From the NCBI GenBank assembly GCA_000165345.1, contig CM000434.1:32001-96000 (forward strand): a DNA stretch of 64,000 nucleotides, in the 5' to 3' direction. Both the position numbers and the translations under genes were made by a program. Below are positions 34,229 through 64,000 of this stretch, piece after piece. The notes under the pieces were generated by a model. It was not told the origin of the DNA and made no database searches. It saw nothing but the letters and a program-made list of their open reading frames with translations. How positions within the stretch are numbered: the first letter of the stretch is position 1; every line of letters begins with the position of its first letter.

Positions 34229-37200
34229 TCAATAAATATCACCAAAATCTATATTCAATAAACGAGAATGTCTTCCATAGCCATACTCATCTTCAATTCC
34301 TTTCTTCTTTATTGCATTCATTGATATACTGGTAGTCTTTCTGTTCTCATTATTATTATTATTATTATTATTACTTGTAATATTACCACAAGATCTTATT
34401 ATATCTTCATCATTTGGTATCTTTCTTTGAAGAGAAACTATGTGATCACCTAAAGATAAAGCAATACCTTGTGTCCTACTTCTTATGCGAACTGTTCCTG
34501 TTATCATCATTTTTGGCTCCTTTTCTACTCCTTCTCTTTGATTATTACTAACCAATTGTTTTTCTAAACTTATATTAACTAGAGCATCCTCTCCAAAAAT
34601 ACTTCTTGCATACAAATTTGTAGCAAAGAAACTTGACTTCTTATCCATCATTATTAAATGATTTGAATTATCACTCTCATTATTATTATCATTATTATTA
34701 TTACTAGTATTAGTATTACTACTCTTATAAGTACCGATATTTATACCGGTACCATTACCACCAATCATCATCATCATCATACTTTCAATACTACTATAAC
34801 CTACCAATGATAATTTAGTTTCTTTGATCAAATATTTTAAAAATTGTATAAAAGAGTCACAACTTGTATGTATTGGAATTTTATTTTCCCATTCAAATTC
34901 TGACCATAATTGTCTAAATAATGGACAAGGAATATTTGAATTAGTAATGAAATCAATCAAATCTATACTAATTTCATTCAATACCACAATATCATTCAAA
35001 CCTAATAATTGAGATGATGATGATGATACTGCTCCGGATCCTATTCCTCCTCCTAATCCATCATTTTGAGAATTTTTGGTTTGAAATGTAACAAAACCAA
35101 ACAATATTCCAGTCTCAATAGATTTTACTTGTGCAACAGAATAAACATGAATAGTATTTCCAGGATCTAAATGATTAATATTTTGTGGTTTTTCTATTAC
35201 TCTTAAATTTCCATAAGGATATAATTCAATTTGTACGTTTTGAACTGCTTTATAACTTTGATTAGTTACTATCAATTCTAATAATACATCTTGATGTTGT
35301 ACTTGAAGTATTGCTTCTATGTAAATTGGATCACTTAAACCTGTTATTGAATATATTCTTTTAGATGTATTAGATTGATCAATACTTCCTTTTTTTCCAT
35401 TATTCGAATTTTTTATATTTAAAGGATCCATTACCATACTATCATCAAAACATTCAAATTCATCATCATCATCATTAATCTGTGTTATATCCACATTATT
35501 TGAAAATACTTTTTCTCTAAATTGTCTAAAATTAACAACATTATATGGAAATCTTCTTGAGGAATTCTTATTTAAACGTTTATTCTCTTTAAATAACTCT
35601 CTCAACTTCATTCCACCATTAATTCCTCCTCCAAGTTCAATTTCATTCCCTTCAATTCCTTGAAACTTTGGAAATAATTTCCTTCTTAACATGATTGTTC
35701 TTTTACTTAATCTAATCAATTCCAAATCTTTAAGATCTTTTTCATTTCCTAATTCTTCTTCATTCTTTTTCAATTGATCCAAATCATTGTAAATTGATTT
35801 AAGTAAAATATAACAATGACTTAATCTATGAGTTGNATCNTNCNNNANNCCNCCANNNNTNTGNTCATTTAAACAATNNNNTAANNAGCANNCNNTANTN
35901 TNAANANNCTTNTTAAANGTANNTANNNCTAAATNCAANATATTTTCTTCNTNCTTATTTTTTCCTTGTTCATCTTTAATTCCAATATTATTAGAAAAAC
36001 ATAATAATTTTATTAATGAAACTCCAATACTTGCAATTAAAAGTAAATCTTCATCTCTAATAATAATATTTCTCAAGTTATTAGTAGTAGTAACTCCAAT
36101 ATTATAACAATTTCCACCTTCAATACCTGTTGAAGAAGAATTCAATTGGGAATTACTAGTTCCTAATAAATTTGTAGAATTCATATTATTATTAGCACCA
36201 TAATATCCATCAACATTACATTCCAAATCCTGAGTTGCATATGTTCCATCNTCCANNNNNNCNNNTNNNGTCNACTNNNTTTGTCATGNATAAGTATTTC
36301 CTACTCCTACCCCTCCTCTTTTAGCAATCTTATCATTATCAATAAAACTATCATTATTAGAATTATTATTATTATCATTATAATCATAATCATCATCATC
36401 ATTGTAATTATCATTTCCCATTAAACTTTGACTAGCTCTTCTATTTGGATGATTTCTTATTTTAATAGGTAAAGGTTCCAAAGAATTGTAAATTACATTA
36501 ATAATATCAATAATCTTTCTTTTATCATTTCCATATTCACATTCACTTAAAATCCATAAACAAGTTCTTAATGGTCTACTGAATTGTATTAATGATAAAT
36601 GAATTATTAATTGATCAACAATTTCATATTGATATTCTGAATAATTAACAACCATTTCTCTAAGAAATTGAATAATTTCATTAACAATAATAGGATTTGA
36701 ATTGGATAAAAATGTCATCATTGAATTAATCATAGGCTTAAAAGTAATTTTATGGTATTTTCTTGTAATCTCATGTAATGCTTTAATTAATATTAACTGA
36801 TAATTTTGAAATTGTTGAAAATCAGATAATTTCCCTCCTCCATAATTCATTGTTCTTAATCCACCAAAAGCTTCTGCTCCTCCCATTCCAAAACTATTAT
36901 CATCATTATTATTATAGTAATTAAAGTCAATATCTGCAGTAAAATGATAAGTTTGATTAAATTCATGATTACCAAATCCAGCAATATTATGATGATGATG
37001 ATGAACAGAGTTATTATTACTACTTCCATTATCATTAACATTATTATTATTATTATTATTATTACTATTGTTATTACTATTAAACTTATAATTTTGAAGT
37101 GAAATATCTTGTAAATGTTTTAATAGAAATTGAAATATATCCAAACAATTATTTTTAGTTAATAATGATGACAACACAATTTGAATAACTTTAATCTGTA

Positions 37201-52639: not shown

Positions 52640-53930
52640 CATGAAAAATTAAANGANNCTNTTGATATGATATGCATCGCAAATCATCATCTATTTGATC
52701 GTTTGTATTAATATTATTACTTTGAATAAATCTAGTAATATTATATTCAGTACATGTAATAAATTCTGTACCTTTAATATCCCAAGATATACAATTTGTT
52801 GGATAATTTGTTTGATTAATTATTGAATAAATTAATATTAATTTACCTCTTTTTTTCTCATATAAATCCCATCTCCATATACCTATCCAAGGTATACCAT
52901 TTATATCTTTAAATACTTGATTTATATCATCTTGCTCAGTTTTATTATCGTTATCATCATTATCATTATTATTATTATTATTGGTATTGGTATTAATATT
53001 ATTGGTATTATTTGTATTATTATTAATTATATTATTATTATTATTATTATTATTATTTATATGGTTTNGGGTATTATTTAGAGTATTATTTTGAATATTA
53101 TCGCCATTTATACCTATTATTATTACTCATTATATATTATTATTATTATTATTTAATTATTATTATTATCACTATAATTACCATTTTTGTTGAGCATTAT
53201 TATTATTACTAAAATAAATAAAAGAATCATGGCTTGTAGCAAGTATTNCATAATTTCTTGAGTAATTTGGACACCATTTAACAATCTAATACATAATTTC
53301 TTAATAATCCTGTTAATACATCATCCTCATTTTTATTATTATTTCGAGTATTAATATCTTTTGTATCATATAAACAATCCCATGTAGAAAATAATTCATT
53401 AGATTTTTTATCAATATTATCATCATTATTTATTTGATTATTATTAATAACATTATTACTATATTTGATCATCCATAATAGAATTTAATTTAATAAAAAT
53501 ACTTATCATACCATTATTTGAACCAATAGCAATCAAATTCATATTATATATATCATTTTCAATAATTGTTAAATTATTAATAAATGAAAATGATGTCATT
53601 TGATAACTATTGATTGATATATTACATGTAAATTGTTCTATGATTGACCAATTATGAAATAATGGTGAATCTTGACAAGAATATATTCTAAAATGACCAT
53701 CTTTTGTAAATACTATCAATGATATATTGATTGTTGATGTATTGATTGTTAATTTATTATTATTTTCATAATTTAATATAAAACTTGAATTAATTATTGT
53801 ATTTCTTGAATCTCTTAATCTTGCTGTCATATTACAAATTCCACCCAATTTATTAATATTATTATCAATATTATCGATATTATTTTGAGTATTATTATCA
53901 TTATTATTTAATAATGATTGTGAGGATGTA
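52640..53930 (-). CDS. Hypothetical protein, possibly WD-repeat-like. Its N-terminus is lost in the assembly gap.
   Basis: The minus-strand ORFs 53459-53848 and 53278-53472, plus a further open frame 52640-52960 (...WIGIWRWDLYEKKRGKLILIYSIINQ...CISWDIKGTEF...), read towards the N-gap. Scattered 'n' bases lie at 52645, 53068 and 53248. Confidence 0.3.
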
Positions 53931-53990
53931 TTTTCAATTGGTAATTTTAATATATCTCTATAATTTTTATTTAATAACCATNNNNNNNNN

Positions 53991-56481
53991 NNNNNNNNNN
54001 NNNNNNNNNNNNNNNNNNNNNNNNNNNNNNNNNNNNNNNNNNNNNNNNNNNNNNNNNNNNNNNNNNNNNNNNNNNNNNNNNNNNNNNNNNNNNNNNNNNN
54101 NNNNNNNNNNNNNNNNNNNNNNNNNNNNNNNNNNNNNNNNNNNNNNNNNNNNNNNNNNNNNNNNNNNNNNNNNNNNNNNNNNNNNNNNNNNNNNNNNNNN
54201 NNNNNNNNNNNNNNNNNNNNNNNNNNNNNNNNNNNNNNNNNNNNNNNNNNNNNNNNNNNNNNNNNNNNNNNNNNNNNNNNNNNNNNNNNNNNNNNNNNNN
54301 NNNNNNNNNNNNNNNNNNNNNNNNNNNNNNNNNNNNNNNNNNNNNNNNNNNNNNNNNNNNNNNNNNNNNNNNNNNNNNNNNNNNNNNNNNNNNNNNNNNN
54401 NNNNNNNNNNNNNNNNNNNNNNNNNNNNNNNNNNNNNNNNNNNNNNNNNNNNNNNNNNNNNNNNNNNNNNNNNNNNNNNNNNNNNNNNNNNNNNNNNNNN
54501 NNNNNNNNNNNNNNNNNNNNNNNNNNNNNNNNNNNNNNNNNNNNNNNNNNNNNNNNNNNNNNNNNNNNNNNNNNNNNNNNNNNNNNNNNNNNNNNNNNNN
54601 NNNNNNNNNNNNNNNNNNNNNNNNNNNNNNNNNNNNNNNNNNNNNNNNNNNNNNNNNNNNNNNNNNNNNNNNNNNNNNNNNNNNNNNNNNNNNNNNNNNN
54701 NNNNNNNNNNNNNNNNNNNNNNNNNNNNNNNNNNNNNNNNNNNNNNNNNNNNNNNNNNNNNNNNNNNNNNNNNNNNNNNNNNNNNNNNNNNNNNNNNNNN
54801 NNNNNNNNNNNNNNNNNNNNNNNNNNNNNNNNNNNNNNNNNNNNNNNNNNNNNNNNNNNNNNNNNNNNNNNNNNNNNNNNNNNNNNNNNNNNNNNNNNNN
54901 NNNNNNNNNNNNNNNNNNNNNNNNNNNNNNNNNNNNNNNNNNNNNNNNNNNNNNNNNNNNNNNNNNNNNNNNNNNNNNNNNNNNNNNNNNNNNNNNNNNN
55001 NNNNNNNNNNNNNNNNNNNNNNNNNNNNNNNNNNNNNNNNNNNNNNNNNNNNNNNNNNNNNNNNNNNNNNNNNNNNNNNNNNNNNNNNNNNNNNNNNNNN
55101 NNNNNNNNNNNNNNNNNNNNNNNNNNNNNNNNNNNNNNNNNNNNNNNNNNNNNNNNNNNNNNNNNNNNNNNNNNNNNNNNNNNNNNNNNNNNNNNNNNNN
55201 NNNNNNNNNNNNNNNNNNNNNNNNNNNNNNNNNNNNNNNNNNNNNNNNNNNNNNNNNNNNNNNNNNNNNNNNNNNNNNNNNNNNNNNNNNNNNNNNNNNN
55301 NNNNNNNNNNNNNNNNNNNNNNNNNNNNNNNNNNNNNNNNNNNNNNNNNNNNNNNNNNNNNNNNNNNNNNNNNNNNNNNNNNNNNNNNNNNNNNNNNNNN
55401 NNNNNNNNNNNNNNNNNNNNNNNNNNNNNNNNNNNNNNNNNNNNNNNNNNNNNNNNNNNNNNNNNNNNNNNNNNNNNNNNNNNNNNNNNNNNNNNNNNNN
55501 NNNNNNNNNNNNNNNNNNNNNNNNNNNNNNNNNNNNNNNNNNNNNNNNNNNNNNNNNNNNNNNNNNNNNNNNNNNNNNNNNNNNNNNNNNNNNNNNNNNN
55601 NNNNNNNNNNNNNNNNNNNNNNNNNNNNNNNNNNNNNNNNNNNNNNNNNNNNNNNNNNNNNNNNNNNNNNNNNNNNNNNNNNNNNNNNNNNNNNNNNNNN
55701 NNNNNNNNNNNNNNNNNNNNNNNNNNNNNNNNNNNNNNNNNNNNNNNNNNNNNNNNNNNNNNNNNNNNNNNNNNNNNNNNNNNNNNNNNNNNNNNNNNNN
55801 NNNNNNNNNNNNNNNNNNNNNNNNNNNNNNNNNNNNNNNNNNNNNNNNNNNNNNNNNNNNNNNNNNNNNNNNNNNNNNNNNNNNNNNNNNNNNNNNNNNN
55901 NNNNNNNNNNNNNNNNNNNNNNNNNNNNNNNNNNNNNNNNNNNNNNNNNNNNNNNNNNNNNNNNNNNNNNNNNNNNNNNNNNNNNNNNNNNNNNNNNNNN
56001 NNNNNNNNNNNNNNNNNNNNNNNNNNNNNNNNNNNNNNNNNNNNNNNNNNNNNNNNNNNNNNNNNNNNNNNNNNNNNNNNNNNNNNNNNNNNNNNNNNNN
56101 NNNNNNNNNNNNNNNNNNNNNNNNNNNNNNNNNNNNNNNNNNNNNNNNNNNNNNNNNNNNNNNNNNNNNNNNNNNNNNNNNNNNNNNNNNNNNNNNNNNN
56201 NNNNNNNNNNNNNNNNNNNNNNNNNNNNNNNNNNNNNNNNNNNNNNNNNNNNNNNNNNNNNNNNNNNNNNNNNNNNNNNNNNNNNNNNNNNNNNNNNNNN
56301 NNNNNNNNNNNNNNNNNNNNNNNNNNNNNNNNNNNNNNNNNNNNNNNNNNNNNNNNNNNNNNNNNNNNNNNNNNNNNNNNNNNNNNNNNNNNNNNNNNNN
56401 NNNNNNNNNNNNNNNNNNNNNNNNNNNNNNNNNNNNNNNNNNNNNNNNNNNNNNNNNNNNNNNNNNNNNNNNNNNNNNNNN
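53991..56481. other. Assembly gap of about 2.5 kb of N, flanked by low-quality sequence with scattered n at 56482-56960.
   Basis: A direct run of n. The ORFs at 53914-56511 and 53967-56504 in the track are poly-X artefacts of this gap. Confidence 0.99.
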
Positions 56482-57177
56482 AANTNCCCAGGNAAAATTC
56501 CCAAATTTTAAAAAATTTTTAAAAAAGGATTANTNAAAAANTATTTNCTTNCCCNTTTCNTCCCCGGGGAAATCNAGGAAAAANTCNAAATCTCTTTGGA
56601 AAAGGAAANTTTAACCTNTCGANGGTATCCCCTTTTTTTCCCNTTTTTANNCGNNTNNAAAAAAAAAAGNTTANAACCATTATANCCCNTCCTTGGCCCT
56701 TTAAANTAAAATTANNGCTTTAAAAANTNNNAAAATTTTTTTTTAAAANAANAATTTTNGACNTTAATTNATATTAANAAAANNAAAATTCCCCCATTGG
56801 GGCNCAAATTCTNTTTNTTTTTTTTTTGGTTATATTGATAGTGATAANTNGCATGNTTATTNCAATTTTGNCAAGTAATTTAATAAATTAATATTTTAAT
56901 TTTGATTAATCATCTAAATTAATAANTTCTTTTTGGTNCTNGTTGATTATNACTTGATTCATATTTAGTATGNCTTTTATGATTACTATTTCTATGCTTA
57001 GAATTCTGATGATAATCTTCTGGACTATTATCATGATGTTTATGATGACTACGATGATTATTACTATGACCATGATGAGTATGGTGATTATGATGATAAT
57101 GATTATAATGACTTTCTGATCTATTACTTGATATAGAATCATCATGAATATGTTTCTTTCTATTATTTGAATGATTA

Positions 57178-57839: not shown

Positions 57840-60377
57840 TTAATCACTCAATCCATCAATTTTATTATCATTTTCATTAGTGTTATTACTCTCATTTAAG
57901 TGACTATTGTCATCATTTTCAAGATTATTTTGAGCTTTATTACTTGAATCATTAAAATTATCTTTTTCATTTGAATTATTACTTTTATTTGTATTATTAT
58001 CATCTTTATTATCCAATTTATTAATTTTTTCTTCATTATTTAATGCTGCTCTCTTTTTTAATATTTTTAATCCAACCCTATAATTTTGTATATACATTGA
58101 TCTATATAATTTTGAAAGTCTAGAATCAAAATGGCAAATTCTCTTACATATTAATAATGCATGTGATGGTCTTCCACCTGGCACTAAAGCAATACTTGTT
58201 TTCTCCCAATTTTTTGTACATTTTGGATCCAAATATTCTGGTTCGCATACACACCAATGGCTTAACATACCTAAAGAATTAATAATAATATTTTGTAATT
58301 TCTCCAAACCACTCAATTCTTCTTCTAATCTTTTTAAATAATTATTGATGTATTCAGTTTTATCAATATATGCATTATTTAAATTATTAATTTCTTCTTC
58401 AGCTTTATTAATAGAACAATTTAAGTGAGCATTTTTTTCTATCAAAAATTTTAATTTATATGATAAATGAAGTCTTTCGCTTTTTTCATTTTCATACTTT
58501 TTTTTTTCTTCACTAATTTGATTATCCATTTTTTTAATAAAAGATTGTAACATAACAGGATTATTATAAAATAACTCTAATGAATATTCTTTTTCATCCT
58601 TATATTCTTTTAATATTTTACTTCTTAAATTAATTCTCAAGTTTCTTTTCTTTTCATAGTATTCTTCTAAGCTTTCTGTATAATTATTATTATTATCTAA
58701 ATTACCAAACTTATTAACTGTTTTTGGCATTCTCAATCTACCCAAATTTTGTTCCTCTCTTCTTTCTTCCTTAATAATCTTTTCATCATCATCATCAATT
58801 TCTGCACCGGCATTTAATAACATATTTAACATTCTATTAAAATACGAACTATCAGTTCCATTTTTATTTTTTTCCTGTTTTTTTGTATTATTACTAGAGT
58901 TTGTTAAAGCATTTCTTAAATTTTCCCTTTTTTCAAGGTAAGCTTCATTTTCTGATTTTTCTTCTTTTTCATCAGTTTCACTATCATTACTTTCACTATC
59001 ATCAGTTTCACTATCATCAGTTTCACTATCATCGCTTTCACTATCATCACTATTATTATTATTATCAACTTCAAGTTTATCTTGATCATTCTCTTGATTA
59101 TCAATTTTATTATTATTATTTTCTTGTAACTTTTCTTTTAATTGAGTATCACTATCTATATCTTTGATATCAGCTTGATCAATGGGAACATTTTTTCTTT
59201 TTGATTTTTCTTTTTCAATAATTCCATCTAATACATTATCTGTTTCATCATAATCACAATATCCGAATAAATTCGAATCAAATAATATATCAAATCTTCT
59301 AAAATCATTCCTTGTATGTAAATCTCTAGCTTCATCATCTTGATCACTATTTTCAAGTGATGAATGAAAAATATTATCTTTTGAATTTACACAAGAATCT
59401 TCAGAAATTATCTTTTTATTTTTTAACTTTAACTTATTCTTTTTTAACCACTTCTTAAATTTTTTATAGTTGTGTTTTTCCTTAACAAAATCAATAATAT
59501 TTGTATCACATTTTATTTCATTTAAATATTGTCTTAAATATATATTATCTTCTTCCTTAAATTTCTCTTTTAACTCGTGTTCTGATATTAGTTCGCCAAT
59601 TACAGGAATCTTGTAACATGATTGATTTTCATTATCACTTTCCATTTCACTTTTTGTTTCATTATCATATTTACAAATTTCAATATTTTCATCAATTTCA
59701 TCTTTTCTAGTATGATCATTAGTACTAATTGACTCACCTTTTCTTACTACTCTTAGTTTTCTAGTAAAATCTCGTTCTTTTAAAACATTATTAATTGATG
59801 GAGGATTCCATTTTATTACTGTTTCTTCAATATTATTATATTGAAAATTTAAAAAAGGAAACCCTTTTTCTGATTTTATATGAATATTTCGTATTTCAAT
59901 ATCATTTTTTTCTCTAATTTGCTCGTTATTTTCTTCCATATCACTATTTTCTCCATCAATATATTGATTTTCATTTTCATGATTATTTTTACCAAAGCTT
60001 ATTTTTCTTTCAATTTTTGTTTTAATTTCTGGAAGGTCTTCATCAACCATTTTTTTTAACCAGTTCTTTTGTTTATCAATATTACGAAGATTTACCCTTT
60101 CATCAATACATTCTTCTAACTTATAGTTAATTTCTCTCCATAATTTCTTTTCATTGTTCTTTACTGATTGCTCTAAATCTGTTCTTTCTATCTCCTCCTT
60201 TTGTTTATTAATTAAATCATTTCTTACATTTTCATTAAGTATTGTTACTGTCGGCTTCTCAAAATAATGTGAAACTTGGATATATCGTAATAAACTTTTT
60301 CCCAATGTAGTTTTTTCACTATTTGATAAGCTATACCTTCTTGGTATTTTATTATTTATTTTATAATAATTTTTCAT
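57840..60377 (-). CDS. Large coiled-coil protein with SDDSE[ST]DD tandem repeats and a Cys/His-rich C-terminal module.
   Basis: 845-aa ORF. The acidic repeat DDSESDDSETDDSETDDSESNDSETD is encoded by a 15-nt DNA repeat. The C-terminal LSHWCVCEPEYLDPKCTKNWEKTSIALVPGGRPSHALLICKRICHFDSRLSK could be a Zn-binding domain. Confidence 0.5.
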   Translation of the reverse strand: MKNYYKINNKIPRRYSLSNSEKTTLGKSLLRYIQVSHYFEKPTVTILNENVRNDLINKQKEEIERTDLEQSVKNNEKKLWREINYKLEECIDERVNLRNIDKQKNWLKKMVDEDLPEIKTKIERKISFGKNNHENENQYIDGENSDMEENNEQIREKNDIEIRNIHIKSEKGFPFLNFQYNNIEETVIKWNPPSINNVLKERDFTRKLRVVRKGESISTNDHTRKDEIDENIEICKYDNETKSEMESDNENQSCYKIPVIGELISEHELKEKFKEEDNIYLRQYLNEIKCDTNIIDFVKEKHNYKKFKKWLKKNKLKLKNKKIISEDSCVNSKDNIFHSSLENSDQDDEARDLHTRNDFRRFDILFDSNLFGYCDYDETDNVLDGIIEKEKSKRKNVPIDQADIKDIDSDTQLKEKLQENNNNKIDNQENDQDKLEVDNNNNSDDSESDDSETDDSETDDSESNDSETDEKEEKSENEAYLEKRENLRNALTNSSNNTKKQEKNKNGTDSSYFNRMLNMLLNAGAEIDDDDEKIIKEERREEQNLGRLRMPKTVNKFGNLDNNNNYTESLEEYYEKKRNLRINLRSKILKEYKDEKEYSLELFYNNPVMLQSFIKKMDNQISEEKKKYENEKSERLHLSYKLKFLIEKNAHLNCSINKAEEEINNLNNAYIDKTEYINNYLKRLEEELSGLEKLQNIIINSLGMLSHWCVCEPEYLDPKCTKNWEKTSIALVPGGRPSHALLICKRICHFDSRLSKLYRSMYIQNYRVGLKILKKRAALNNEEKINKLDNKDDNNTNKSNNSNEKDNFNDSSNKAQNNLENDDNSHLNESNNTNENDNKIDGLSD
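58963..59048. repeat. Tandem 15-nt coding repeat (tttcactatcatcag)n, about 6 units.
   Basis: Direct read. On the minus strand it encodes the SDDSE/SDDTE repeat units. Confidence 0.9.
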
Positions 60378-61301: not shown

Positions 61302-62285
61302 TTACTCTGCAGGTCTTTTTTTGCTCCTTGCATTAAATGCGGTGTTGGCGCCCGGATTCATATTGTTTGGCGGTAATCCAGGGTGGTGCATAATTTGATG
61401 AGAAGGTATTGGAGGTGGAATATGCGAATGATGAGGGATATGATGAGGAAAGTTGTTGAACATGTGCTGTTGATGATAAATATTTGGATGACCTGGAATT
61501 GGTGGATTTAAGTGTGGTGGGGGTGGAGGTGGGAAATAAATCATATTTGATGGGAACCCTGTTATAGGTGGTGGTGGCGGTAAATTATTCATCATCTTAA
61601 TATTTGGATTTGGTAAACCAGTATTTGAATTATTAATATTTAAATTTGCATTCACATTATTTGAGTTAGAAATACCAGATGTTATTGTACTCTTGTTTAG
61701 TAAATCATCACTTGTTTCAATGTTTTGTTTTTTAATACGTTCCCATCTTATACCTAATTGTCTAATAATATATTCTTTAAATGTTTTTTCTGTAAAGCCA
61801 TAATTAAACCAAGGTGAAACATCCAGTAATCTACTCCAAGGCCTTAACTCTGGATTATTATCCCAAACCATTTGAAGATTTTTACATGGATTTTCTTCTG
61901 TAGCTGTATCTTCATTGTCAATATATATTGTATTAGAAACATTTAAGGCATGCAAATTTTGGTCTCCTGTATTCATTTTTTGATTATTTATATTCGAAGA
62001 GTTACCATTACTTGCTCCTGTATTTCCAGGTTTGCAATCCGTCATTCCTTTCTTCAAAACATCTGAAGCCGGATTAATTGAATTGTCTACTTCATTATCA
62101 CCACCTGTTGAACTTATTTTATCATTCAATTTTGAAAAATCTTTTAATCCTCCTTCTTCATTTCCTCCGCAAATTAAAAATGTTATATCTTCATCATCAT
62201 CTTCATTATCATTCTCATCATAATCTTCATTCTTTGTTCCATTATTATTCTTTGAAATATTATCTTCCAAATTACTCCCACTCAT
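61302..62285 (-). CDS. Fip1-like pre-mRNA 3'-end processing factor (FIP1 motif protein).
   Basis: The conserved Fip1 domain RPWSRLLDVSPWFNYGFTEKTFKEYIIRQL matches kPWRkpgaDiSDYFNYGFnEetWkaYc. It has an acidic N-terminus and a Pro/His-rich C-terminus. Confidence 0.8.
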   Translation of the reverse strand: MSGSNLEDNISKNNNGTKNEDYDENDNEDDDEDITFLICGGNEEGGLKDFSKLNDKISSTGGDNEVDNSINPASDVLKKGMTDCKPGNTGASNGNSSNINNQKMNTGDQNLHALNVSNTIYIDNEDTATEENPCKNLQMVWDNNPELRPWSRLLDVSPWFNYGFTEKTFKEYIIRQLGIRWERIKKQNIETSDDLLNKSTITSGISNSNNVNANLNINNSNTGLPNPNIKMMNNLPPPPPITGFPSNMIYFPPPPPPHLNPPIPGHPNIYHQQHMFNNFPHHIPHHSHIPPPIPSHQIMHHPGLPPNNMNPGANTAFNARSKKRPAE

Positions 62286-63526
62286 TTAATTAATTACGTT
62301 TTTAATAATCCTCAATATTATTCAGATTGTTTAATTCTCTATGAATCTATAGAAATATTACATCTCAATTCTCAATATTAATTTTTACCCTATTTAATTT
62401 TTTTTTTTCAAATAAAGCGAAAGAAATTCAAATTAATTTATTTATATACAAAATACATGAATTAATATTATTAACATAAACACATTTGCAATCCGCAAAT
62501 TTTTAGTCACTTTTAAATATTAACTTTGTAAATATTTAATATACATTTATTTTAGAATGATTATTAGTAGATTATTTTTTTTCTCATATAATTTTTATTA
62601 ATTACATATAAGCCTAGTCAATTTATTATTTTATTTGTATTATTATTTTTTTTCCACTAAATTATATATTTATACTAATTATATCAATTTATTTCATTAT
62701 TAAACTATTATTAATTAAATACTATGCTATTTAAAATATAAATATTAATATTTATATTATTATTATTAGTATTAATATATCATTAATGCTATTATTATTA
62801 TTTCTATTGTTATTATTGTTATTAATATTATTATTATTATTATATTGTTATCATTATTTATTATTAAAAATAACTTATATTATAATATAATAATTCTTAA
62901 AATATATTAACTATAATTATTCATTACTCTGATTTATCACATAGCTTACTTATTTAAAAAATTCATTATGATATATATATTTAATAGTCTATATGTTTTA
63001 AAAGACTACGTATAGTCAAAATGATTAAATTGAAAAATGCGCGGGCTTTTATTCATATTAGACTTTAATAATAAACTTTAGCTAAGAATAATTTTGGACT
63101 TGTAAATATTTAAGGTAAAGTAAGAAAAAAGGAAAGGAAAGGAAAGGGAAAAAAAAGATAAAAATACTTATATATAAAAAAAATAAAAAAGTCGAATAGT
63201 AGACAAATAGAAAAAATAGTTGGAATTAGAAATATAAAATTTATATATATATAAATATTACGCGTAGTACGAATCTGAAATATTGCTACGTTTTCTGGTG
63301 AATAGGTTAAGAATCTCTTTGAAAATAAATAGTCTAATTGCCAGATAGGAGGAGAACCATTCTGAATTAGCAAGAAGGATAGATAAAAGCAAAGTAGAAA
63401 AAAATATACAGAATATATTTAAGTCAAATTTAACCACAAGAGATTAGAATTATATACTAATATTGAGAAACTCTGAATAATTAAGTAATATAATTAACAA
63501 AAGGTTTCTGAGACTTATCAGTAAGA

Positions 63527-64000
63527 TGGATTCAGTTAACCAGATTGGATTGGATGAATCATTTAGCAATGAATTAAAGGATACTAAGATGGCAAATAAT
63601 CCAAATTTATCGAGAAGTGATATTATTTCAGGACCAACAAATTCAGGAGCTAATAATAATAACAATAATAATGTTGGCGCCACCAATTCTTCTTCATCTT
63701 CATCTGGACTTTCTGGGACACCCAGTGCTATTGGAACTAATCTTTTTGATTTAAGTGATAACAAATCTTTGAATGATGAATCAAATAAAAATGTTGGAGA
63801 AAGTATGATGGATACTGATTTACCAGGATCAGCTGATGATGAGGAAATGAAAAGATCAATATATATTGGAAATGTTGATTATGGCACTAAATTAACAGAA
63901 TTACAAGATTTATTTAAAAGTTGTGGAAGTATTAACAGAATTACAATAATGAATGATAAAAGAACAGGAATGCCAAAAGGATTTGCTTACTTGGAATTTT
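63527..64000 (+). CDS. Nuclear poly(A)-binding protein PABPN1/PABP2 homolog. The 3' end lies beyond the window.
   Basis: The [51 protein letters not shown] aligns with PABPN1 [48 protein letters not shown]. The ATG at 63527 is in good context. Confidence 0.8.

What the first reader, a model, noticed from the sequence alone, without database searches (positions are those of the whole stretch)
61302..64000. Divergent gene pair encoding two polyadenylation factors (Fip1 and PABPN1)
Fip1 on the minus strand and nuclear poly(A)-binding protein PABPN1 on the plus strand are divergently transcribed neighbours separated by about 1.2 kb. Both act in mRNA 3'-end formation and poly(A) tail synthesis. 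Such functional pairing around a shared promoter is uncommon in eukaryotes and may indicate co-regulation.
Basis: partly seen in the sequence, partly recalled or inferred. Interest (0 to 1): 0.5.

Follow-up and report, generated by a model that had tools for sequence, protein, structure and literature searches.

The report
Neighbouring Fip1 and PABPN1-type genes, Cryptosporidium
Two already annotated Cryptosporidium parvum housekeeping genes for mRNA tail formation (Fip1 and a PABPN1-type poly(A)-binding protein) do sit head-to-head, but nothing tested shows this is more than ordinary gene order in a very compact genome.

Summary
The window is Cryptosporidium parvum chromosome 6. ORF 61302-62285 (-) is cgd6_400, a 327-aa protein with a Fip1 motif above Pfam's cut-off. 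The ORF starting at 63526 (+) is cgd6_410. The window end cuts it at codon 158 of 262. Its RRM is clearly of the PABPN1/Pab2 type. The start codons are 1240 bp apart.

The interpretation, a special co-regulated pair on a shared promoter, is not supported.
- The pair is kept in C. felis, C. ryanae and C. serpentis, but so is the whole ~17 kb neighbourhood.
- Outside the genus it is absent: Toxoplasma carries the two genes at unrelated loci, and six other eukaryotic PABPN1-type loci have no Fip1 neighbour.
- The spacer ranges from 165 to 1240 bp across species. It shares no conserved G+C-containing 8-mer and has no E2F or AP2-type motif.
- Published qPCR profiles correlate (r = 0.80), but unrelated genes correlate equally well.
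- Divergent gene pairs are routine in this genome.

One difference from textbook PABPN1: the Cryptosporidium protein has no recognisable N-terminal coiled coil.

Verdict: a real, ordinary, already annotated gene pair of low interest.

The parts
61302..62285 (-). cgd6_400: single-exon CDS of a 327-aa Fip1-family protein. It has an acidic N-terminus with an invariant FLICGG segment, the Fip1 motif, an Asn-rich and Pro/His-rich low-complexity tail, and a basic C-terminal KKRP.E.
   Evidence: Pfam PF05182 at 32.9 bits vs cut-off 22.7. Human FIP1 is the only PDB match. Identical protein annotated 'Pre-mRNA polyadenylation factor' / 'Fip1 motif family protein'. The published qPCR primers for cgd6_400 lie in this ORF (sequence).
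61752..61844 (-). Fip1 motif (aa 148-178, RPWSRLLDVSPWFNYGFTEKTFKEYIIRQLG), the segment that in human FIP1 binds CPSF30.
   Evidence: Pfam match coordinates. Alignment to 7k95_B/7zyh_B. Nearly every residue is invariant in nine Cryptosporidium species.
62286..63525 (.). 1240-bp spacer (18% G+C) between the two start codons. It presumably holds both 5' UTRs and both promoters.
   Evidence: Sequence. G+C content, no E2F/AP2/CCAAT motif, and no G+C-containing 8-mer shared by three or more of four species. No Rfam or tRNA hit. No gene called here in three complete assemblies.
63526..64000 (+). cgd6_410: first 158 of 262 codons of a PABPN1/Pab2-type protein, cut by the window end. The disordered N/S-rich N-terminus is followed by the RRM, which begins at aa 112 (nt 63859).
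   Evidence: Translation. RRM_1 at 45.5 bits. Best PDB matches are PABPN1/ePABP2. Full protein from L001. [quoted passage not shown]

Best explanation
[quoted passage not shown] Its conserved motif docks on CPSF30, and its acidic N-terminal part presumably recruits poly(A) polymerase (inferred from the yeast and human proteins). cgd6_410 encodes the PABPN1/Pab2-type nuclear poly(A)-binding protein. It has one RRM that binds the growing poly(A) tail and an RG-rich tail ending in PY that should act as a transportin-type nuclear import signal (inferred). The adjacency most likely arose once in the ancestor of the genus. It has persisted because Cryptosporidium genomes are almost completely collinear, not because selection holds these two genes together. 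The 1.24-kb AT-rich spacer is long enough for two independent promoters. Both genes are expressed at low, broadly constitutive levels that fall late in culture, like many other housekeeping genes.
For: Identity of the genes. Genus-wide retention of the pair together with all neighbours (BSD, PP2C, two orphans, RRM, Fip1, 845-aa orphan, COPI_assoc, Hikeshi, NIPA). No pairing outside the genus: Toxoplasma gene IDs 230230 vs 211020; six other PABPN1-type loci without a Fip1 neighbour; no Fip1 motif in the six-frame scan of four of them. Spacer length is 1240, 1088, 719 and 165 bp in four species, with no shared motif. The other divergent spacers in the same 21 kb are 883 and 927 bp, so 1240 bp is typical of two 5' regions, against a genome mean of 504 bp over all orientations. 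qPCR: r = 0.80 and rho = 0.61 over 7 time points. 7.5% and 20% of 253 background pairs do as well, and cgd6_490, cgd6_570 and cgd6_10 correlate with each gene as well as the two do with each other. The authors state that tandem and divergent genes are not correlated as a norm. More than half of regulatory ATAC peaks in C. parvum are annotated bidirectional.
Against: The qPCR correlation is positive, and in one replicate it is high (r = 0.92), so some shared regulation is not excluded. In C. serpentis the spacer is only 165 bp, which physically forces overlapping promoter regions there. For this one functional category, adjacency has a prior expectation of only about 0.05-0.1 per genome. I could not examine gregarine or Plasmodium loci for Fip1. 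No transcription start site data could be read for this locus.
Confidence: 0.8

Rival explanations
1. The pair is a co-regulated 'polyadenylation module'. One bidirectional promoter in the spacer drives both genes so that Fip1 and the poly(A)-binding protein are made in matched amounts, and selection keeps them adjacent.
For: Divergent orientation in all four Cryptosporidium lineages sampled, including the distant gastric species, where the spacer is only 165 bp. Positive expression correlation (r = 0.80). Bidirectional regulatory regions are frequent in C. parvum. Both products act on poly(A) polymerase in other eukaryotes (established knowledge).
Against: Retention cannot be told apart from genus-wide collinearity. 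The pairing is absent in Toxoplasma and six other eukaryotes. There is no conserved sequence element or known motif in the spacer, and its length is not conserved. The correlation is matched by unrelated genes, and 7.5-20% of background pairs reach it. Divergent genes are generally not co-expressed in this organism.
Confidence: 0.12
2. The functional link is looser than stated. The cgd6_410 product is not a PABPN1-like stimulator of poly(A) polymerase. It is a Pab2/Sgn1-like poly(A)-binding protein acting in nuclear RNA surveillance or tail trimming, or in the cytoplasm, so the two neighbours do not cooperate in tail synthesis.
For: The N-terminal coiled-coil segment is conserved in the animal, fungal and oomycete proteins of the alignment, and in mammals it is needed to stimulate poly(A) polymerase. 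It is absent from all Cryptosporidium orthologues. The AlphaFold model shows residues 1-101 disordered, with only a 7-residue helix before the RRM. Database curators named the protein 'Sgn1p-like'.
Against: The RRM, RG-rich tail and terminal PY are those of nuclear PABPN1/Pab2 proteins. A short or divergent stimulatory helix could escape detection in a low-complexity N-terminus. The model rests on only 10 aligned sequences.
Confidence: 0.3
3. One or both assignments are spurious matches of low-complexity ORFs, and there is no real polyadenylation gene pair.
For: Most of both proteins is low-complexity sequence. The Fip1 match covers only 31 residues, and its PDB E-values are weak (0.002). Several species' Fip1 orthologues are annotated 'CCAAT-box DNA binding protein subunit B'.
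Against: The Fip1 motif scores above Pfam's curated cut-off and is almost invariant across nine species that are only 36-83% identical overall. The RRM match to PABPN1 is strong and specific. Both transcripts were detected by qPCR.
Confidence: 0.02

Closest known systems
Fip1 / FIP1L1 (yeast Fip1p, human FIP1L1; Pfam PF05182), subunit of CPF/CPSF
   Same: Has the conserved Fip1 motif that binds CPSF30, an acidic N-terminal region and a proline-rich region downstream of the motif. T. gondii Fip1 (TGME49_230230) co-purifies with CPSF.
   Different: It is short (327 aa) and has no Arg-rich or RD-rich C-terminal RNA-binding region as in human FIP1L1 (read from the sequence). In this it resembles yeast Fip1p. 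The PAP-binding segment cannot be recognised by sequence. The genus-invariant FLICGG segment is only a candidate.
PABPN1 / PABP2 (human PABPN1, Xenopus ePABP2, S. pombe Pab2; S. cerevisiae Sgn1 as a divergent relative)
   Same: A single RRM with PABPN1-type RNP motifs ([17 protein letters not shown]). It scores 60-64 bits against solved PABPN1/ePABP2 RRMs. It has an RG-rich C-terminal domain ending in PY. Relatives outside the genus are annotated polyadenylate-binding protein 2.
   Different: There is no recognisable coiled-coil segment N-terminal to the RRM. Intestinal Cryptosporidium species instead carry a ~100-aa disordered N/S-rich extension, which is much shorter in C. muris and C. serpentis (206 aa).
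Conserved divergent gene pairs with bidirectional promoters (e.g. the ribosomal protein S16/L13 pair conserved from fungi to apicomplexans, PMC2871058)
   Same: Head-to-head orientation, related function and a compact genome.
   Different: The S16/L13 pair is kept across fungi and four apicomplexan genera, including C. parvum. The Fip1/PABPN1 pair is found only inside the collinear genus Cryptosporidium and is not mentioned in that survey.

Membership tests
Fip1 (PF05182) | Fip1 motif scoring above the curated Pfam threshold | tested here: met
   32.9 bits vs cut-off 22.7, aa 148-178. Precomputed PF05182 in all nine orthologues.
Fip1 (PF05182) | Similarity to the CPSF30-binding segment of a structurally characterised Fip1 | tested here: met
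   The only PDB matches are human FIP1 7k95_B and 7zyh_B, E = 0.002, aligned over aa 145-181. The E-value is weak but the hit is specific.
Fip1 (PF05182) | N-terminal region that binds poly(A) polymerase | not testable with these tools
   An acidic stretch and an invariant D..FLI.G segment are present. Binding cannot be shown by sequence.
Fip1 (PF05182) | Arg-rich C-terminal RNA-binding domain (human-type only; yeast lacks it) | tested here: not met
   The C-terminal half is Asn-, Pro- and His-rich and ends in KKRP.E, with no Arg-rich domain. This is not defining for the family as a whole.
PABPN1 / Pab2 type nuclear poly(A)-binding protein | Single RRM closest to PABPN1-type RRMs rather than other RRM classes | tested here: met
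   PABPN1/ePABP2 structures at 60-64 bits vs 43 bits or less for others. Best hits outside the genus are named polyadenylate-binding protein 2. RRM_1 at 61.6 bits full length.
PABPN1 / Pab2 type nuclear poly(A)-binding protein | RG-rich C-terminal domain ending in a PY nuclear localisation signal | tested here: met
   RGRGMGPGGGFRGGMGRGGFRGG...NRHIVNPY at the C-terminus. The terminal P and Y are nearly invariant in the 10-sequence alignment. Function as an NLS is inferred.
PABPN1 / Pab2 type nuclear poly(A)-binding protein | Coiled-coil/helical segment N-terminal to the RRM (stimulates poly(A) polymerase in mammals) | tested here: not met
   The E(A/L)IKARV.EME.EA.KL block of the animal, fungal and oomycete sequences has no counterpart in four Cryptosporidium sequences. 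AlphaFold shows aa 1-101 at pLDDT ~40 with no helix, and only H103-109. The alignment is shallow, so this is not final.
PABPN1 / Pab2 type nuclear poly(A)-binding protein | Specific poly(A) binding and nuclear localisation | not testable with these tools
   Needs biochemistry or tagging.
Co-regulated divergent pair with a shared bidirectional promoter | Transcription start sites close together (conventionally under 1 kb) within one accessible region | not testable with these tools
   The ATG-to-ATG distance is 1240 bp. No TSS or ATAC track could be read for this locus. The preprint gives only genome-wide numbers.
Co-regulated divergent pair with a shared bidirectional promoter | Conserved cis-element(s) in the spacer | tested here: not met
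   No G+C-containing 8- to 10-mer is shared by three or more of four species. No E2F motif, AP2-type GCATGC or G-box in the C. parvum spacer.
Co-regulated divergent pair with a shared bidirectional promoter | Co-expression above the background of unrelated gene pairs | tested here: inconclusive
   r = 0.80 and rho = 0.61 over 7 time points. 7.5% and 20% of 253 background pairs are as high, from a small background of 23 genes.
Co-regulated divergent pair with a shared bidirectional promoter | Adjacency conserved beyond what general collinearity explains | tested here: not met
   Kept only within the fully collinear genus. Absent in Toxoplasma and in six other eukaryotic loci.

The most novel reading that the evidence does not exclude
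The Fip1/PABPN1-type head-to-head pair is a selected, co-regulated unit specific to Cryptosporidium. It would be driven from one bidirectional promoter (only 165 bp in gastric species) and would balance two poly(A)-polymerase cofactors in a parasite whose PABPN1-type protein has lost the usual coiled-coil stimulatory segment.
Probability: 0.1. Interest if true: 0.3.

Novelty: already known. Interest (0 to 1): 0.12.

Why it matters
It matters little beyond bookkeeping. Both genes are already annotated in C. parvum and its relatives, and the mRNA 3'-end machinery of apicomplexans is already under study as a drug target (CPSF3 inhibitors are cited). If the pair did share one promoter, it would be a compact, convenient bidirectional housekeeping promoter for Cryptosporidium transgenesis and a small example of functional gene clustering. 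The apparent lack of the coiled-coil segment in the Cryptosporidium PABPN1-type protein is a modest lead on how tail length is controlled in this lineage.

Tried and rejected
1. A profile search of the protein database with a trimmed Fip1-motif alignment (A2), meant to find Fip1 genes outside the genus, returned nothing.
2. Literature searches for a P. falciparum Fip1 gene ID found none. Only its PABN1 (PF3D7_0923900) is on record.
3. I looked for something hidden in the long spacer. There was no Rfam family, no tRNA, no gene called in three complete assemblies, and only short low-complexity ORFs.
4. I looked for known Cryptosporidium promoter motifs (E2F, GCATGC, G-box, CCAAT). None is conserved in the spacer. 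Only a lone GCGCG and an ACGCGT occur in C. parvum.
5. The 2010 survey of conserved eukaryotic gene pairs does not mention Fip1 or PABPN1.
6. I considered whether other polyadenylation or RNA-processing genes cluster nearby. The neighbours are BSD, PP2C, COPI-associated, Hikeshi, NIPA and orphans, so there is no larger cluster.

Full report
**What is there.** The window is AT-rich eukaryotic DNA. The 327-aa protein of ORF 61302-62285 (-) occurs identically on ~1.3-Mb chromosomes of several Cryptosporidium parvum assemblies, about 80-100 kb from one end. It is annotated 'Pre-mRNA polyadenylation factor' or 'Fip1 motif family protein'. Window 61302-64000 is 100% identical to CP029785.1. [quoted passage not shown]

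**Checking the observation.**
- The minus-strand ORF matches the Pfam Fip1 motif at 32.9 bits (cut-off 22.7) over aa 148-178.
- Its only matches among solved structures are the CPSF30-binding peptide of human FIP1.
- The motif is almost invariant in nine Cryptosporidium species whose proteins are otherwise only 36-83% identical.
- The plus-strand ORF starts at 63526 and is cut by the window end after 158 codons. The complete protein has 262 aa.
- Its RRM scores 60-64 bits against PABPN1 and embryonic PABP2 structures, against 43 bits or less for every other RRM class.
- Outside the genus its best relatives are named polyadenylate-binding protein 2.
- The start codons are 1240 bp apart.
- The observation, including coordinates, orientation and distance, is therefore confirmed.

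**Anatomy of the two proteins.** The Fip1 protein has these parts:
- an acidic N-terminus containing a genus-invariant D..FLI.G segment;
- the Fip1 motif;
- an Asn-, Pro- and His-rich tail, followed by a basic KKRP.E end.

It lacks the Arg-rich RNA-binding domain of human FIP1L1 and in that respect resembles yeast Fip1p.

The PABPN1-type protein has an RRM (aa 112-181) and an RG-rich tail ending in PY, as in PABPN1/Pab2 proteins from animals, fungi and an oomycete. The coiled-coil block upstream of the RRM (EAIKARV.EMEEEA.KL) is conserved in those other lineages. It has no counterpart in any Cryptosporidium orthologue. An AlphaFold model shows residues 1-101 as disordered, with only a 7-residue helix before the RRM. 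The gene is therefore a PABPN1-family member by RRM and tail. One classical feature, the segment that stimulates poly(A) polymerase in mammals (established knowledge), was tested and not found.

**Is the pairing conserved?** Within the genus it is. A divergent RRM/Fip1 pair is present in C. felis, C. ryanae and the distant gastric species C. serpentis. Every other gene in the surrounding ~17 kb is also in the same order and orientation: BSD, PP2C, two orphans, the 845-aa orphan, COPI-associated, Hikeshi and NIPA. Retention of this pair therefore says nothing beyond the general collinearity of the genus.

Outside the genus I found no support.
- In Toxoplasma gondii, Fip1 is TGME49_230230 and the PABN1 homologue is TGME49_211020. 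Those identifiers are far apart.
- Six PABPN1-type loci from other eukaryotes (Pythium oligandrum and five unidentified eukaryotic contigs) have no Fip1 gene within the flanks held.
- A six-frame scan with a Fip1-motif HMM found the motif only in the Cryptosporidium loci.
- The Plasmodium Fip1 locus could not be found.

**Is there a shared promoter?** No transcription start data were available to me.
- The spacer is 1240, 1088, 719 and 165 bp in the four species.
- It contains no G+C-containing 8-mer shared by three or more species, and none of the known Cryptosporidium upstream motifs. E2F is the dominant motif of accessible regulatory regions in this parasite.
- It holds no Rfam family or tRNA.
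- The two other divergent spacers in the same 21 kb are 883 and 927 bp, while the genome mean over all orientations is 504 bp. So 1240 bp is what two back-to-back 5' regions normally occupy here.
[quoted passage not shown] Head-to-head arrangement is therefore routine in this genome, not uncommon.

**Co-expression.** I used the 72-h qPCR time course of Mauzy et al. 2012 (PMC3305300). Both genes are expressed at low levels from 2 to 36 h and decline at 48-72 h. Their median profiles correlate with r = 0.80 and rho = 0.61. In a background of 253 pairs among 23 genes from the same supplement pages, 7.5% and 20% of pairs do as well. cgd6_490, cgd6_570 and cgd6_10 correlate with each of the two genes as well as the two do with each other. 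The tandem neighbour cgd6_390 is anti-correlated with both. [quoted passage not shown] This test is inconclusive and leans toward a generic housekeeping pattern.

**Chance.** C. parvum has about 3,800 genes (3,302 is stated to be 87%), and the polyadenylation complex has 15-20 subunits. The expected number of adjacent pairs within that set is n(n-1)/N, about 0.05-0.1 per genome, and roughly a quarter of that for divergent pairs (my calculation). For this one category the adjacency is mildly unusual. The category was chosen after seeing the pair, and summed over all functional categories several such neighbour pairs are expected per genome.

**Conclusion.** The feature is real and correctly identified, but it is an ordinary, already annotated gene pair. 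The best-supported account is fortuitous adjacency fixed in the Cryptosporidium ancestor and carried along by genome collinearity, with two separate promoters (confidence about 0.8). A selected, co-regulated module remains possible at roughly 10%. Genome-wide expression ranks, TSS and ATAC tracks, and gregarine or Plasmodium synteny would settle the question. The only mildly notable biology is the missing coiled-coil segment in the Cryptosporidium PABPN1-type protein.

Noticed in passing
window 53982-56481, and scattered single Ns at 35836-36289, 52654-53248 and 56484-56973: There is a 2,500-base run of N plus many isolated Ns, so the window comes from a draft-quality assembly. Next to the gap, the COPI-associated gene (start 57621, minus strand) reads as a 147-aa ORF here. 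In the complete assembly CP029785.1 it is a 237-aa ORF, and the window is only ~91% identical to that assembly in this stretch.
   Followed up: partly
window 57840-60377 (-), cgd6_390: This is an 845-aa orphan protein with no Pfam domain and an acidic repeat (SDDSESDDSETDDSETDDSESNDSETDE). It is conserved across the genus. Transcripts are undetectable at 2-6 h and rise to 72 h, anti-correlated with its neighbours cgd6_400 and cgd6_410.
   Followed up: partly
window 62286-63525; L007 7836-8000; L008 7282-8000; L009 6913-8000: The Fip1/RRM spacer shrinks from 1240 bp in C. parvum to 165 bp in C. serpentis. In parallel, the low-complexity N-terminus of the RRM protein is about 55 aa shorter in the gastric species (206 vs 262 aa).
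   Followed up: partly
window ~62160-62190 (-), aa 33-42 of cgd6_400: A short segment D(V/I)(T/K)FLI(C/Y)G(G/V), just after the acidic run, is nearly invariant in nine Cryptosporidium Fip1 proteins. It is a candidate for the poly(A)-polymerase-binding segment.
   Followed up: no
database annotations of cgd6_400 orthologues (P0003, P0007, P0008, P0010): Several Cryptosporidium Fip1 orthologues are named 'CCAAT-box DNA binding protein subunit B' in public records. This looks like a mis-annotation driven by the low-complexity Asn/Pro/His-rich tail, since all carry PF05182.
   Followed up: no
window 63036-63050 and 63260-63266: The only G+C-rich islands in the 18% G+C spacer are 'atgcgcgggctttt' and the palindrome 'acgcgt'. 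Neither matches the canonical E2F site, and neither is conserved in C. felis, C. ryanae or C. serpentis.
   Followed up: partly
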